In this document: positions 8,777 through 49,756 of the stretch, piece by piece
How the letters are laid out: every line of letters starts with the position of its first letter
Numbering within the stretch: the stretch's first letter is position 1
Program-made: the position numbers and the translations under genes
The notes under the pieces: generated by a model
Told to the model about the DNA's origin: nothing
Database searches by the model: none
Seen by the model: only the letters and a program-made list of their open reading frames with translations
IMG/VR virus record: IMGVR_UViG_3300008255_000098
DNA: 64,000 nucleotides
Reading direction: 5' to 3' (one strand)
Source: a virus
Taxonomy: Duplodnaviria > Caudoviricetes

Positions 8777-9994
8777 ATGGAAAAAACATATACACGAAGA
8801 GGATGGATACGTTCTATCCGAAAGAGTAAGAAACTCAGTTTTATCAGTGCCACTGATGGACAGGATGAGTTTCAGCTTACTATTAAACATTTTGGAAAAG
8901 AAGACGATAGTAAAGTTTTTGGAGACTTTAAAGTAGGAGCTTCATTTGAAGCGTTTGGTAAAGATAGCTATACCCCACGTGGAGATTACGAATTTTCTGT
9001 AAAGGAAATTAAAATTGTTGGCGAAGCGGCTGACGATTTTGCTATTCAACCTAAAAAACATAGTGACGATTTTTTGCGAACTATTCCTGAAGAACGTGGC
9101 AGAACTGCTTTATATCAGGGAGTTTGGAGAATTAGGCATAAGGTTTCACAAGAGTTACATCGGTTTTTTACGAGCAAAGATTTTATACAATTCTGGACAC
9201 CTTGCATTACATCAGCGGATTGTGAGGGTGCAGGAGAAACATTTTCAGTAGAAACTGACTGGCTTAAAAGCCATCTAACGGTTTCTGGTCAACTGCATGG
9301 TGAAGTTGGTATGATGTCCTGTGGGAAGATTTATACTTTTGGGCCGTGTTTTCGTGCGGAGAAATCAACTGGTCGTCGTCATCTTGCAGAATTTTGGATG
9401 TTAGAACCAGAAATGGCTTTTTATTCTCTAAAAGAAACAATGGACCTTGTAGAAGACTTACTCAGCCATGTTTTTAGAGTCGCATCAAATGAATATGAAA
9501 AAGAATTTGAGAAAATGCGGGTTTCAATGGACCATATTACTGAAATGATATCTTTGCAAAAAGCGTGGCTCCGCATGACATATGAAGAAGTTTGTGATAA
9601 ATACGGGCTTGTTTGGGGCACGGATATTAATGCTGAGTTGGAGCGCAAGCTAACAGAAGATTTAAAATCACCAGTATTTATCACTCATTGGCCAAGGGAA
9701 ATGAAACCTTTTTACATGAAAAATGACGGAATCGTAGCAGAGTGTTTTGACCTCATTTTCCCAGAGGTCGGAGAACTCATAGGGGGCTCTGTACGTGAAG
9801 AAAATTTTGAGAAACTTAAAAAATCAGTAGTTGATTCTGGAATAGATGCACAATCAATGGATTGGTATCTTAAAACTAGAAAACACGGAACAGTGCCACA
9901 TGCAGGTTTTGGATTGGGTTTTGAGAGACTTATAATGTATATTTGTAAGTTAGAAAAGATTCAAGATACGATTCCATTTCCAGTTAGTTATTAG
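8777..9994 (+). CDS. asnS: asparaginyl-tRNA synthetase
   Basis: OB fold; LTVSGQLHGE; FRAEKS..RRHLAEFWMLEPE; PHAGFGLGFER. Confidence 0.95.
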   Translation: MEKTYTRRGWIRSIRKSKKLSFISATDGQDEFQLTIKHFGKEDDSKVFGDFKVGASFEAFGKDSYTPRGDYEFSVKEIKIVGEAADDFAIQPKKHSDDFLRTIPEERGRTALYQGVWRIRHKVSQELHRFFTSKDFIQFWTPCITSADCEGAGETFSVETDWLKSHLTVSGQLHGEVGMMSCGKIYTFGPCFRAEKSTGRRHLAEFWMLEPEMAFYSLKETMDLVEDLLSHVFRVASNEYEKEFEKMRVSMDHITEMISLQKAWLRMTYEEVCDKYGLVWGTDINAELERKLTEDLKSPVFITHWPREMKPFYMKNDGIVAECFDLIFPEVGELIGGSVREENFEKLKKSVVDSGIDAQSMDWYLKTRKHGTVPHAGFGLGFERLIMYICKLEKIQDTIPFPVSY

Positions 9995-47087: not shown

Positions 47088-47495
47088 ATAAGAGGAATTC
47101 AAAATCCTCCAAAAAGTTAAGAATCCTCCGAAAAAAAGTTATTGGGTTCAAAAATCATATCGAACCTGATATACCGAGAAATCAAAAGGAAGCAACATAG
47201 AAAGCATCCTTCACCTGCCTAAAAGATGGTGGGCTGGTCATAAGACCAAAAATAAATCTTCACATTGACAATCGAATATGACTTTATTTATTTTTCGGGA
47301 ATCACGCCGATGAGCGTGTTCTGGATAGGTGAAATTCCTATCATTCCCACCAATTTTTGTATGACATATTATTAGCGTGCTGAACATCGTGTAATACCCA
47401 AGCATTCTACCTTTGAAGAAAACCTTAGATAGTAGCAAGCGAGGTAGCAAGCGGTATACGACTTTGTAAAAACATGGCAATGACGTAGTCATGCA
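47088..47495 (+). ncRNA. large structured RNA candidate
   Basis: Nested helices GGTGGG/CCCACC, GGGAAT/ATTCCC, CACGC/GCGTG, GATAGG/CCTATC, GTATGAC/GTCATGC. Confidence 0.55.
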
Positions 47496-47502
47496 GAGAT
47501 AT

Positions 47503-47547
47503 CTGTGTGTAGCTCAGTCTGGCTCAGAGTGCTCGGTTCGGATCCGA
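47503..47547 (+). tRNA. tRNA-Pro(CGG) 5' half, interrupted
   Basis: CTGTGTG acceptor strand, D-arm and anticodon arm CTCGG-TTCGGAT-CCGA; matching 3' strand CACGCAG lies at 48091. Confidence 0.85.
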
Positions 47548-47581
47548 ATACAAAAATCCGATTTGTTGACATATTGACCTA

Positions 47582-48040
47582 ATGAAAGAATGCTATAGAT
47601 GTAAAAAAACTAAAACTGATTTAGAATTTAGTAAAAGTTCTTCACATAAAGATGGGTTGCATTCTTATTGTAAATTTTGTCAAAAAGAAATGGATCAACA
47701 ATATTGGCACAATAAGAAGAAAAATCCAAAAAGAATGAAACAAAGACGGCAACTTATCAAACAACGACTTGAAGAAGCACGAGAATATGTTTTTCAATAT
47801 TTATTACAACATCCTTGTAAGTGCGGTGAAACAAATCCATTGTTTCTTGAATTCGATCATCTTGGTAAAAAGAAACAATCAATTTCCGATATGGTTGGTT
47901 CAAAATTAGCTGTTGAATCTATTCGAAGAGAAATAGAACAATGTCAGGTCTTATGTATAAAATGTCATAGATTTAAAACTGCTAAAGAGTTTGATTGGTG
48001 GATTATTAAAAGATATAATAAGTTACAGGGTATGGCGTAA
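47582..48040 (+). CDS. HNH / EndoVII-like homing endonuclease
   Basis: CxxC..CxxC zinc finger; CGETNP..LEFDH; CQVLC..CHR.KT. Confidence 0.88.
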   Translation: MKECYRCKKTKTDLEFSKSSSHKDGLHSYCKFCQKEMDQQYWHNKKKNPKRMKQRRQLIKQRLEEAREYVFQYLLQHPCKCGETNPLFLEFDHLGKKKQSISDMVGSKLAVESIRREIEQCQVLCIKCHRFKTAKEFDWWIIKRYNKLQGMA

Positions 48041-48101
48041 TCTGGTAGCGTACCCCATTCGGATTGGGGAGGTTTGGGTTCAAATCCCTCCACGCAGACC
48101 A
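48026..48101 (+). tRNA. chimeric tRNA-Pro(CGG) with mispaired acceptor
   Basis: CCCCA-TTCGGAT-TGGGG arm; 5' CAGGGTA pairs at only 4 of 7 positions with 3' CACGCAG; ACCA end. Confidence 0.8.
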
Positions 48102-48110
48102 ACAAGTTTA

Positions 48111-48440
48111 GGGAAAAATGACATCCCTGGCCATAATATGGTAGGGAGAGTCTCCCGAGAATTTCTCAGTGGTATTATCCCATCGTCAAAACCACTTTAA
48201 TCAAACCTGTGAGGAAGGTATGCCGGACCTAAATCGGTGCATAACCGACGCCTTGAGAAAAGCGTCTATTGTTGTCAGTGACATTCTCTGTGGTTCGTCA
48301 CTTTAAATAAAATCTCACAAGAGGGCGTACCGAGCCCTAATCGGTGAAAAATGACATGTCGGGCCATAATACGGCACAATATCGACAGAACTGACAATTC
48401 TGTCCATCGTCTACATTCACACTTTGATAATGTGAATTGT
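48111..48440 (+). ncRNA. structured RNA with internal duplication (possibly GOLLD-like)
   Basis: GAAAAATGACAT....GGCCATAATA.GG at 48113 and 48346, each followed by CCATCGTC; many hairpins. Confidence 0.5.
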
Positions 48441-48448
48441 TGTTTTGT

Positions 48449-48538
48449 TGCGGGGATGAAGGCCGGTGGTAAGCCTCCGAAGTCTCATAAGCTTCGAACT
48501 TCTAAAGTGCGCAGGTTCGATTCCTGCTCCCGCACCCA
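48449..48538 (+). tRNA. tRNA-Met(CAT), initiator-like acceptor, long variable region
   Basis: TGCGGGG/TCCCGCA; loop CTCATAA; CCA. Confidence 0.85.
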
Positions 48539-49710: not shown

Positions 49711-49756
49711 ACCGGAGTAGTTTAGTGTAGGGTGGGTTCAACTCATTCCTCCGGTG
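49711..49756 (+). ncRNA. armless tRNA-like minihelix
   Basis: ACCGGAG/CTCCGGT stem, short linker starting TAG, T-arm with GGTTCAAC. Confidence 0.6.

What the first reader, a model, noticed from the sequence alone, without database searches (positions are those of the whole stretch)
47503..48101. tRNA-Pro(CGG) split by an HNH cassette that carries a foreign tRNA-Pro 5' portion
Seen: the 5' half at 47503 (acceptor strand CTGTGTG) pairs fully with CACGCAG-ACCA at 48091-48101, about 545 nt away. Between them lie an HNH gene and, overlapping its stop codon, a different Pro(CGG) tRNA body (CAGGGTA...) that pairs poorly with that 3' end; the T-stem also breaks, which places the junction in the T-loop. 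Neither copy folds properly alone. Inference: an intronless homing event caught in a hybrid state, or a long insert removed by processing and ligation, for which the phage has two RNA ligases.
Basis: partly seen in the sequence, partly recalled or inferred. Interest (0 to 1): 0.75.

Follow-up and report, generated by a model that had tools for sequence, protein, structure and literature searches.

The report
Homing-endonuclease scar splitting a phage tRNA-Pro
In a giant groundwater phage, a selfish nuclease gene has inserted into a proline tRNA gene, leaving an orphan front piece and a mismatched hybrid tRNA; this is a clear natural example of a known kind of event, not a new way of making tRNA.

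Summary
47503-47547 is positions 1-42 of a tRNA-Pro(CGG). A 152-aa HNH endonuclease ORF follows at 47582-48040. Overlapping its stop codon is a second tRNA-Pro(CGG) body (48026-48101) with 3 of 7 acceptor pairs and 2 of 5 T-stem pairs mismatched. That hybrid's 3' strand pairs 7/7 with the orphan's 5' strand.

It is not a mis-assembly: eight contigs from different samples and assemblers carry the whole arrangement. Intact tRNA-Pro genes elsewhere combine the same 5' strand, T-arm 3' strand and 3' acceptor strand, so one native gene was split.

The left junction is at 47547|47548 and is non-homologous. The right crossover lies inside the T-loop motif at 48076-48088.

Homologs of this HNH sit within 60 nt of tRNA genes in 12 of 15 sampled phages. 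They show presence/absence polymorphism in cluster-C mycobacteriophages, where another chimeric tRNA lies at the cassette border.

Best reading: a fixed scar of intronless homing by a tRNA-gene-targeting HNH endonuclease, analogous to T4 SegB, with the hybrid tRNA probably crippled. Nothing supports processing and ligation, though it is not strictly excluded. No intron ribozyme is present. The same stretch was noted before only in an overlapping window of this genome, not on other DNA.

The parts
47503..47547 (+). Orphan 5' fragment of the native tRNA-Pro(CGG), tRNA positions 1-42 (acceptor 5' strand CTGTGTG, D arm, anticodon arm lacking its last base)
   Evidence: The 22-nt core is identical to 10 intact tRNA-Pro(CGG) genes, all of which continue with G43.
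47548..47581 (+). 34-nt non-tRNA leader of the cassette. The left (non-homologous) junction is at 47547|47548.
   Evidence: 47548 is A where intact relatives have G. There is no tRNA similarity beyond this point.
47582..48040 (+). HNH endonuclease gene, 152 aa, single copy in the window. Its last five codons and stop codon are supplied by the tRNA body.
   Evidence: PHROG 2255, E 1e-25. Alignment A1 shows H93 and C125-x-x-C128-H129 conserved, but C-K-C in place of CxxC and K127 in place of a conserved N. GC is 29.4% against an ORF mean of 35.9%.
48026..48078 (+). Donor-derived 5' portion of a different tRNA-Pro(CGG): acceptor strand CAGGGTA, D arm, a perfect anticodon stem, variable loop and T-stem 5' strand TTGGG
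   Evidence: No sequence able to pair with its acceptor and T strands exists nearby.
48076..48088 (+). T-loop segment GGGTTCAAATCCC, within which the right-hand crossover between donor and native tRNA must lie
   Evidence: The T-stem 5' strand (48074-48078) fails to pair with the 3' strand (48086-90) at 2 of 5 pairs. Native-type intact genes carry GGGGG-TTCAAAT-CCCTC.
48086..48101 (+). Native 3' end: T-stem 3' strand CCCTC, acceptor 3' strand CACGCAG, A73 and an encoded CCA
   Evidence: It pairs 7/7 with 47503-47509. The same 5'/3' combination occurs in the intact tRNA-Pro of L049.
47991..48019 (+). Sigma-70-like consensus site TTGATT-17-TATAAT inside the HNH 3' end, 6 nt upstream of the hybrid tRNA start. 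It may be the cassette tRNA's own promoter.
   Evidence: This is a consensus match only (9 sites found against 4.5 expected in the region).
48091..48139 (.). Polymorphic patch: haplotype B (L007, L009) differs at 48091 C>T, 48094 G>A and 48139 T>C, and nowhere else in 7.5 kb
   Evidence: The patch begins exactly at the first base of the acceptor 3' strand.
47257..47389 (.). Polymorphic patch: haplotype C (L008, L045) carries 11 differences here and none elsewhere in 3.8 kb

Best explanation
A free-standing HNH homing-endonuclease cassette from an unsampled donor phage was inserted into a resident tRNA-Pro(CGG) gene of this huge phage. The cassette consists of a 34-nt leader, the HNH gene, and the first ~50 nt of the donor's own tRNA-Pro(CGG), which the HNH reading frame runs into. 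Inferred mechanism: the endonuclease cut the resident gene near the variable loop and T-stem. The right-hand end was repaired by recombination with the donor tRNA through the shared T-loop sequence. The left-hand end (after tRNA position 42) was joined without homology. The result is an orphan 5' fragment, an apparently intact HNH gene, and a chimeric tRNA (donor positions 1 to ~54 plus native ~55 to 76) whose acceptor and T stems no longer match, so it is probably non-functional or badly impaired. The structure is now fixed in the population. Shown: the anatomy, its reality across assemblies, the common origin of the two native pieces, and the tRNA association and mobility of the HNH family. 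Inferred: the cleavage position, the order of events, and the loss of tRNA function.
For: (1) The anatomy and mismatches are confirmed. (2) Eight independent contigs span the whole cassette and a ninth spans the left junction; an independent sample differs at only 3 bases. (3) Intact tRNA-Pro genes elsewhere unite the separated pieces. L049 has CTGTGTG with GGGGG-TTCAAAT-CCCTC-CACGCAG-A, including the same U4.G69 wobble. L050 and L051 have CTGTGTG with CACACAG. A contig in the same samples carries an intact tRNA-Pro sharing 18 nt with the orphan's D arm and 18 nt with the hybrid's T-arm and 3' end. (4) Ten intact tRNA-Pro(CGG) genes show that the orphan's homology stops exactly at 47547. (5) The HNH family sits in tRNA arrays: 12 of 15 sampled phage homologs lie within 60 nt of a tRNA on the same strand, and 14 of 15 within 600 nt. 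The same holds in metagenomic homolog L036 and in the closest huge phage LR745206.1. (6) Mobility: only 8 of 202 cluster-C mycobacteriophage records match over 80% or more of the query, and most of the rest are ~430 bp shorter. The HNH+ phage Dandelion differs from the HNH- phages Cali and Catera from inside tRNA-Pro (about position 11) to beyond tRNA-Tyr, and its tRNA-Pro has a U6.U67 acceptor mismatch that Cali lacks. (7) In Paradiddles, a decayed tRNA-Thr(TGT) copy after the HNH lacks positions 45-54, the same segment lost from the window's native gene. (8) Precedent: T4 SegB recognises the T-loop motif GGTTCRANTCC and cuts inside tRNA genes (PMC2330249). The ORFs of the T5 endonucleases F-TflI, II and IV also lie in the tRNA cluster (same paper). 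HNH genes are the most widespread CDS in Mycobacterium-associated tRNA arrays (PMC5966550). (9) The only two polymorphic patches in 3.8-7.5 kb lie at, or within ~115 nt of, the cassette borders, which fits the report that nuclease genes mark recombination boundaries (PMC10448857).
Against: No HNH-free allele of this phage was found, and no donor was found. The nearest HNH homologs are only about 43% identical over most of their length, and neither half of the donor or native tRNA has an exact match in IMG/VR. The direction and mechanism of the event are therefore inferred. The window's HNH deviates from all nine aligned homologs at two conserved positions (C-K-C for CxxC; K127 for N), so present-day activity is uncertain. 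Infernal still scores the hybrid above the tRNA gathering threshold (33.4 against 29 bits), and a consensus promoter lies just upstream, so complete loss of function is not shown. The cleavage site has not been measured.
Confidence: 0.8

Rival explanations
1. The hybrid tRNA at 48026-48101 is still a working, if weak, tRNA-Pro(CGG), transcribed from its own promoter inside the HNH 3' end. The orphan fragment is inert debris.
For: Infernal scores it at 33.4 bits, above the gathering score of 29. Read directly from the sequence, the bases I know as E. coli-type ProRS identity elements are present (G35, G36, G72, A73, C1-G72). A TTGATT-17-TATAAT site ends 6 nt upstream. In haplotype B the 48091 C>T change turns the A7.C66 mismatch into A-U. 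CCG makes up 16% of proline codons, and no other tRNA-Pro is seen in the window.
Against: Three interspersed mismatches leave no more than two consecutive acceptor pairs, and the T-stem has only 3 pairs. ARAGORN rejects it in context. In the folded 599-nt RNA the proximal acceptor pairs have probability 0. The second haplotype-B change leaves G4.A69 unpaired.
Confidence: 0.12
2. RNA-level rescue. The whole 599-nt transcript folds so that 47503-47509 pairs with 48091-48097. The ~520-nt insert is then cut out, and the halves function either non-covalently or after sealing by the phage RNA ligases, giving a mature tRNA-Pro(CGG).
For: The distal acceptor helix is predicted with probability 0.83-0.99 in the full RNA. 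ARAGORN calls a join of the orphan (positions 1-42) to the hybrid (43-76) as tRNA-Pro(CGG), with C27-G43 restored. Both haplotype-B substitutions keep the distal pairing. An RNA ligase (PHROG 968) and a second ligase-like gene are present in the window.
Against: Rfam finds no group I or group II intron, and only 34 nt of the insert lie outside the ORF. The junctions form a plain helix caused by the palindromic anticodon loop, not a bulge-helix-bulge. The joined product would still carry the U49.C65 and U50.U64 T-stem mismatches. The native variable loop and T-stem 5' strand are absent, as expected of a DNA scar and not of an evolved split gene. I chose the ends of the folded RNA, which favours end-to-end pairing, and the overall z-score is only -0.63. 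Any transition in that strand would preserve pairing, so the two substitutions carry little weight. To my knowledge no phage or bacterial pathway is known that excises such an insert.
Confidence: 0.05
3. The HNH played no part. Two tandem tRNA-Pro(CGG) genes were rearranged by ordinary recombination or deletion, and the HNH gene was a passive passenger between them.
For: Tandem same-anticodon tRNAs are common in these arrays: two Lys(CTT) in L036, three Pro(TGG) in L049, and duplicated Gly(TCC) in LR745206.1. Another internally deleted tRNA remnant lies at 49711-49756 with no nuclease gene beside it.
Against: This needs at least two events (deleting native positions 43-76, then replacing the second copy's 3' end with the native 3' end plus its flank) where a single insertion suffices. 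It also does not explain why homologs of this HNH repeatedly sit at tRNA borders with chimeric or decayed tRNAs.
Confidence: 0.06
4. It is an assembly chimera of two strain alleles.
For: None was found. Short divergent patches show that a related strain co-occurs.
Against: Identical architecture appears in eight contigs from three assembly pipelines and several samples, including contigs of 26 kb, 47 kb and 201 kb.
Confidence: 0.01

Closest known systems
T4 SegB, a free-standing GIY-YIG homing endonuclease in the T4 tRNA gene cluster (PMC2330249; PMC13096335)
   Same: It is a free-standing nuclease gene embedded among phage tRNA genes. Its recognition site is centred on the T-loop motif GGTTCRANTCC, and it cuts inside tRNA genes. 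Homing carries flanking tRNA sequence with it. Rearrangements use microhomology between a tRNA 5' end and the nuclease gene's 3' end. In the window the right-hand crossover lies in GGGTTCAAATCCC and the HNH reading frame ends inside a tRNA 5' end.
   Different: It belongs to a different nuclease superfamily (GIY-YIG, not HNH). In the cases I read, SegB sits between intact tRNA genes, whereas here the cassette sits inside one tRNA gene and has left an orphan fragment and a mismatched chimera. Cleavage by the window's enzyme has not been tested.
HNH endonuclease genes in tRNA arrays of T5 (F-TflI, F-TflII, F-TflIV; cited in PMC2330249) and of mycobacteriophages and Mycobacterium plasmids (PMC5966550, PMC6409571, which cite Pope et al. 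2014 for cluster M)
   Same: They share the nuclease superfamily and the same genomic niche. Direct homologs of the window's protein (31-42% identity in alignment A1) are the HNH genes of cluster-C phages (Dandelion, ET08), apparent cluster-M phages (PegLeg, Skinny; Skinny's record is classed as Bongovirus) and Streptomyces phages.
   Different: The papers I could read describe the association only at the level of gene neighbourhoods. Whether the T5 enzymes belong to the same HNH subfamily was not tested.
Group I introns in bacterial tRNA genes, and archaeal split or intron-containing tRNAs
   Same: In both, a tRNA gene is interrupted by a long insert that can encode a homing endonuclease.
   Different: There is no ribozyme and no bulge-helix-bulge. 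The break is after position 42, not in the anticodon loop. Part of the native gene (about positions 43-54) is missing and has been replaced by foreign tRNA sequence.
Integrative elements that target tRNA genes and carry a replacement tRNA end
   Same: The incoming DNA brings a partial tRNA copy that fuses with the resident gene's remaining part.
   Different: Those elements use integrases, restore a perfect tRNA and usually replace the 3' end. Here the 5' portion is replaced, no integrase is involved, and the fusion is mismatched.

Membership tests
Free-standing HNH homing endonuclease (intronless homing) | HNH (beta-beta-alpha-metal) nuclease domain | tested here: met
   PHROG 2255 at E 1e-25, plus other HNH and endonuclease VII PHROGs. 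H93 and C125-x-x-C128-H129 are invariant in alignment A1. Caveats: there is no Pfam hit, the first Cys pair is C-K-C not CxxC, and K127 replaces a conserved N.
Free-standing HNH homing endonuclease (intronless homing) | Not inside a self-splicing intron or an intein | tested here: met
   No intron family was found in Rfam at E up to 10 or at gathering threshold across the window. The ORF stands alone with its own start and stop codons.
Free-standing HNH homing endonuclease (intronless homing) | Presence/absence polymorphism among close relatives | tested here: inconclusive
   For this phage, all nine contigs carry the gene. One low-coverage contig end (L045) hints at a deletion variant, and one unitig ends exactly at 47547. 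For the homolog in cluster-C mycobacteriophages the feature is clearly met: 8 of 202 records cover 80% or more of the query.
Free-standing HNH homing endonuclease (intronless homing) | Co-conversion of flanking sequence, with foreign flanks travelling with the gene | tested here: met
   In the window, a donor-type tRNA 5' portion is fused to the native 3' end. In the homolog case, Dandelion differs from Cali from inside tRNA-Pro to beyond tRNA-Tyr.
Free-standing HNH homing endonuclease (intronless homing) | Site-specific cleavage of the allele that lacks the gene | not testable with these tools
   This needs purified protein and a native-type tRNA-Pro DNA substrate.
T4 SegB family | GIY-YIG catalytic domain | tested here: not met
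   The protein matches HNH and endonuclease VII families only. It works like SegB but is not a member.
Group I intron in a tRNA gene | Ribozyme core, with insertion in the anticodon loop | tested here: not met
   There is no Rfam intron hit. Only 34 nt of the insert lie outside the ORF. The break is after position 42.
Archaeal-type spliced or split tRNA | Bulge-helix-bulge motif at the exon-intron junctions | tested here: not met
   Cofolding the junctions gives one continuous helix, caused by the palindromic anticodon loop, with no bulge-helix-bulge. I did not search the window for a splicing endonuclease gene.
Canonical functional tRNA-Pro (the hybrid at 48026-48101) | Cloverleaf with a paired 7-bp acceptor stem and 5-bp T-stem | tested here: not met
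   The acceptor has 4 of 7 pairs and the T-stem 3 of 5. ARAGORN does not call it in context. Infernal scores it at 33.4 bits, marginally above the gathering score of 29.
Canonical functional tRNA-Pro (the hybrid at 48026-48101) | Mature, charged tRNA is produced | not testable with these tools
   No RNA run was listed for this DNA.

The most novel reading that the evidence does not exclude
The split gene is not dead. The transcript folds through the perfect distal acceptor helix, host or phage nucleases remove the HNH-containing insert, and the two pieces act as a nicked or ligase-sealed tRNA-Pro(CGG). That would be the first split tRNA matured by cut-and-ligate in a bacterial virus, and would give the phage's RNA ligases a biosynthetic role beyond repair.
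Probability: 0.04. Interest if true: 0.9.

Novelty: new member of a known kind. Interest (0 to 1): 0.38.

Why it matters
The locus is a clean natural record of what a tRNA-targeting homing endonuclease does when repair is only half homologous. Both junctions are readable to within a few bases: after tRNA position 42, and inside the T-loop. That gives a concrete, testable prediction for the cleavage and recombination site of a widespread but uncharacterised HNH subfamily that lives in phage tRNA arrays, from actinobacteriophages to huge groundwater phages.

It also shows that these elements can damage tRNA genes as well as shuffle them. This matters for interpreting tRNA repertoires, 'pseudo-tRNAs' and odd tRNA-like fragments in large phage genomes. 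It also warns annotators that a marginal tRNA call next to an HNH gene may be a chimera. It does not reveal a new mechanism of tRNA biogenesis.

Tried and rejected
1. Near-identical DNA in the 50,697 phage records: none. Distant mode found only short tRNA-Pro hits and one weak HNH hit.

2. Exact scans of IMG/VR for the orphan core, the native 3' end and the donor body: none. A scan of prokaryote genomes for the donor body: none. The donor therefore remains unsampled.

3. Relatives through the HNH protein or the downstream SpoU-like methylase in IMG/VR: none.

4. Search of 5.8 billion proteins: the nearest full-length homologs are about 43% identical. P0001 (100% identical, 89 aa) proved to be a contig-edge fragment of the same locus.

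5. Search for an uninterrupted allele: no contig joins 47547 directly to the 3' part in four runs. All contigs carrying the upstream 96/99-aa gene and reaching the site hold the cassette. A unitig ending exactly at 47547 in one low-depth run and the L045 contig end are unresolved hints only.

6. No whole genome is held for this window, so I could not check for other tRNA-Pro genes outside it.

7. No RNA holder was listed among public runs, so expression could not be examined.

8. I first placed the left junction at 47546|47547 through a miscount and corrected it to 47547|47548.

9. ARAGORN called the hybrid when I gave it artificial flanks. That was a flank artefact; with real flanks it is not called.

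10. I considered and dropped the direct repeat ATCCGA (47542-47547 and 47556-47561) as a microhomology or target-duplication signature. The second copy is not at the junction.

11. Pope et al. 2014 (cluster M phages) could not be read.
Full report
WHAT IS THERE. The window is part of a huge phage from aquifer and groundwater metagenomes. It holds 25 ARAGORN tRNA genes, a tmRNA, NAMPT and RNA ligase genes. Its nearest sequenced relative is the 634,780-bp uncultured phage LR745206.1, whose NAMPT is 44% identical.

The flagged site has three parts on the + strand:
- **47503-47547** is the first 42 positions of a tRNA-Pro(CGG): acceptor strand CTGTGTG, D arm, and an anticodon arm lacking its last base.
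- **47582-48040** is a 152-aa ORF preceded by a 34-nt leader.
- **48026-48101** is a second tRNA-Pro(CGG)-like body that starts 15 nt before the ORF's stop codon and ends in an encoded ACCA.

The ORF is an HNH endonuclease (PHROG 2255, E 1e-25; no Pfam hit).

CHECKING THE OBSERVATION. Infernal scores 48026-48098 at 33.4 bits, against a gathering score of 29. It marks non-standard pairs at acceptor 2-71, 4-69 and 7-66 and at T-stem 49-65 and 50-64. ARAGORN does not call this body in its real context.

The 3' acceptor strand CACGCAG (48091-48097) pairs at all seven positions with CTGTGTG at 47503 (six Watson-Crick pairs and one G-U). Only 13 positions in the 64-kb window could do so. When Infernal is given only the stretch ending at 47547, it reports a 3'-truncated tRNA covering model positions 1-41 (16.3 bits).

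A metagenome scan with the orphan's 22-nt core returned ten intact tRNA-Pro(CGG) genes in other dense tRNA arrays. All ten continue with G, completing the C27-G43 pair, where the window has A at 47548.

IS IT AN ASSEMBLY ARTEFACT? No. Laying contigs from four public runs showed a 26-kb contig identical to the window. An independent sample gave a 1,964-nt contig spanning 47031-48900 with just three substitutions.

Exact-protein look-ups then retrieved the locus from Logan, ENA (MEGAHIT and SPAdes) and JGI assemblies. Eight contigs span the whole cassette (L005-L010, L040, L041) and L035 spans the left junction.

The population is almost clonal and has three haplotypes. One differs only at 48091, 48094 and 48139 across 7.5 kb. 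Another differs only at 11 sites within 47257-47389 across 3.8 kb. So the structure is fixed in this population, not transient.

WERE THE TWO SEPARATED PIECES ONE GENE? Yes, with high confidence. Scans for the native 3' end found intact tRNA-Pro(UGG) genes that combine the two halves:
- L049 has 5' CTGTGTG with ...GGGGG-TTCAAAT-CCCTC-CACGCAG-A, including the same U4.G69 wobble.
- L050 and L051 have CTGTGTG with CACACAG.
- L047 and L048 have CTGCGTG with CACGCAG.

A contig in the same samples also holds an intact tRNA-Pro sharing 18 nt with the orphan's D arm and 18 nt with the hybrid's T-arm and 3' end.

These genes indicate that the native T-stem 5' strand was GGGGG. The hybrid has TTGGG there, which belongs with its foreign 5' acceptor strand CAGGGTA. 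No partner for those foreign strands exists nearby. The right-hand crossover therefore lies within GGGTTCAAATCCC (48076-48088). About 12 native bases (roughly positions 43-54) were lost.

WHAT IS THE HNH? It is single-copy in the window. Its GC content is low for this phage: 29.4% against 35.9 +/- 3.8% for long ORFs. It has no close relative among 5.8 billion proteins, the best full-length hits being about 43% identical.

More distant homologs are informative. I examined 15 phage homologs spanning the whole hit range, from hosts including Mycobacterium, Streptomyces, Gordonia, Rhodococcus, Bacillus, Yersinia, Pectobacterium, Acinetobacter, Klebsiella and Pseudomonas. Twelve lie within 60 nt of a tRNA gene on the same strand, and 14 lie within 600 nt. 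In several (Dandelion, JonJames, Francesca) the reading frame runs into the 5' end of the next tRNA, as it does here.

The same pattern holds for metagenomic homolog L036, which sits 9 nt after two tandem tRNA-Lys(CTT) genes. It also holds for LR745206.1, where the homolog follows a duplicated tRNA-Gly(TCC).

EVIDENCE THAT THE FAMILY IS MOBILE AND REMODELS tRNA GENES. Among 202 cluster-C mycobacteriophage records matching the Dandelion segment, only 8 cover 80% or more of the query. Most of the rest are about 430 bp shorter while keeping tRNA-Pro and tRNA-Trp.

Aligning Dandelion (HNH+) with Cali and Catera (HNH-) shows that homology breaks inside tRNA-Pro after about position 11 and resumes only after tRNA-Tyr. 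The HNH therefore travels with foreign tRNA sequence. Dandelion's tRNA-Pro has a U6.U67 acceptor mismatch, whereas Cali's stem is perfect. This is a milder chimera of the same kind.

In Streptomyces phage Paradiddles, an intact tRNA-Thr(TGT) precedes the HNH and a decayed copy follows it. The decayed copy keeps exact 9-mers for positions 36-44, 55-63 and 68-76 but lacks 45-54. That is the same variable-loop and T-stem segment missing from the window's native tRNA-Pro. Two independent loci damaged at the same tRNA position suggest, by inference, that the enzyme cuts there.

MECHANISM PROPOSED. By analogy with T4 SegB, I infer the following sequence. SegB's 27-bp site contains the T-loop motif GGTTCRANTCC, it cuts inside tRNA genes, and its homing carries neighbouring tRNA genes with it (PMC2330249; see also PMC13096335 on SegB-driven rearrangements and tRNA co-localisation).

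The HNH from a co-infecting donor cut the resident tRNA-Pro(CGG) near positions 43-55. The right-hand end invaded the donor's own tRNA-Pro downstream of the HNH, through the shared T-loop. Synthesis then copied the donor tRNA 5' portion, the HNH and its leader. Lacking homology, the left-hand end (position 42) was joined illegitimately. A single event of this kind explains every feature.

The only polymorphic patches in the region lie at the right border (starting at the first base of the acceptor 3' strand) and about 115 nt left of the orphan. This fits the report that nuclease genes mark boundaries of genetic exchange between phages (PMC10448857).

IS ANY tRNA MADE? This is unknown, because no RNA data were available.

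The hybrid is probably crippled. It has no more than two consecutive acceptor pairs and only three T-stem pairs. In a fold of the whole 599-nt RNA, its own acceptor pairs have probability 0.

It is not certainly dead. It scores just above the Rfam threshold, keeps C1-G72, A73, G35 and G36, and a consensus promoter ends 6 nt upstream. One haplotype-B change also repairs pair 7-66. CCG makes up 16% of proline codons in the window's long ORFs, and no other tRNA-Pro lies in the window. The rest of the genome could not be examined.

THE PROCESSING-AND-LIGATION IDEA. In its favour, the distal acceptor helix forms with probability 0.83-0.99 in the fold of the 599-nt RNA. A hypothetical join of the orphan (1-42) to the hybrid (43-76) is called tRNA-Pro(CGG) by ARAGORN.

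Against it:
- I chose the ends of the folded RNA, and the fold is no better than shuffled sequence (z = -0.63).
- No intron ribozyme is detected, and there is no room for one.
- The junctions form only the helix expected from the palindromic anticodon loop.
- The joined product would keep the broken T-stem.
- Native sequence is missing, as in a DNA scar.
- The two haplotype-B substitutions preserve distal pairing, but any transition in that strand would.

I give this reading about 5%.

COMPARISON WITH WHAT IS KNOWN. Free-standing homing endonucleases inside phage tRNA clusters are established: SegB, a GIY-YIG enzyme, and the T5 endonucleases F-TflI, II and IV, whose ORFs lie in the tRNA cluster (both in PMC2330249). 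The presence of HNH genes in mycobacteriophage and Mycobacterium tRNA arrays, and their suspected role in diversifying tRNA sets, has also been noted (PMC5966550, PMC6409571, PMC6582537).

The window's element works like these and is a homolog of the mycobacteriophage HNH genes. What is less usual is that the cassette sits inside a tRNA gene, with both junctions readable and an orphan fragment plus a mismatched chimera left behind.

I classify it as a new member of a known kind. It is a useful natural map of where this HNH subfamily acts, but not a new mechanism.

CAVEATS. No donor and no HNH-free allele of this phage were found. The HNH departs from nine homologs at two conserved positions (C-K-C for CxxC; K127 for N), so it may no longer be active. 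One low-coverage contig end (L045) suggests a diverged relative in which 47415-47753 is deleted and the remaining HNH is frameshifted. That would fit endonuclease-gene decay, but it rests on 55 nt.

Noticed in passing
window 49711-49756: A tRNA remnant with a perfect 7-bp acceptor stem (ACCGGAG/CTCCGGT) and a degenerate T-arm, but no D or anticodon arm. It looks like a second internally deleted tRNA scar in the same array, with no nuclease gene beside it.
   Followed up: partly
window 48113-48141 and 48346-48374: A 29-nt repeat at 86% identity (GAAAAATGACAT...GGCCATAATA...) lies directly downstream of the hybrid tRNA and again just upstream of the odd 90-nt tRNA-Met at 48449. It may be a phage promoter or part of a structured RNA. 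The third haplotype-B substitution (48139) falls in the first copy.
   Followed up: no
window 47257-47389: An 11-difference patch (about 8% divergence) appears in haplotype C (L008, L045, and an X3 contig) within otherwise identical DNA. It lies in the non-coding region upstream of the orphan fragment and looks like a short gene-conversion tract from a diverged relative.
   Followed up: partly
L045:2600-2734 (ENA SPAdes contig, about 3.6x coverage): The contig follows the window to 47414 and then joins 47754-47809 at 53/56 identity, with a 1-nt deletion. This is a possible deletion variant lacking the orphan fragment and the first 172 nt of the HNH. Only 55 nt at a contig end support it.
   Followed up: partly
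window 47547 (run X4): A 272-nt unitig ends exactly at the left junction. That is where a de Bruijn graph would branch if an uninterrupted allele co-occurred, but it could equally be a coverage dropout at about 4x depth.
   Followed up: no
L004:1956-2029 (Gordonia phage JonJames): An unannotated tRNA-Lys(CTT), scoring 60 bits in Rfam and called by ARAGORN, overlaps the end of the HNH-homolog gene 21 by about 10 nt.
   Followed up: yes
L003:1917-1970 (Streptomyces phage Paradiddles): A decayed second copy of tRNA-Thr(TGT) lies immediately after the HNH stop codon. It lacks positions 45-54, while an intact copy sits 40 nt upstream of the HNH.
   Followed up: yes
L049 (IMG/VR contig), about 8800-9100: Three tandem tRNA-Pro(TGG) genes. 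One of them carries the same CTGTGTG/CACGCAG acceptor stem as the window's split gene.
   Followed up: no
L015:466-874 compared with L018:91-98: In one metagenomic tRNA array, a weak HNH-like ORF (26% identity, E 1e-4) fills the gap between an intact tRNA-Pro(CGG) and tRNA-His. In a related array the two tRNAs are adjacent. This is a possible further presence/absence case next to tRNA-Pro(CGG).
   Followed up: no
window 48449-48538: ARAGORN calls a 90-nt tRNA-Met(CAT) with its anticodon at position 38. Rfam matches it only below threshold, as tRNA-Sec-like (27.5 bits). It is an atypical long tRNA.
   Followed up: no
L046 (LR745206.1 365500-368500): The closest sequenced huge phage has duplicated tRNA-Tyr(GTA) and tRNA-Gly(TCC) genes, with an HNH homolog directly after the second Gly(TCC).
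   Followed up: partly
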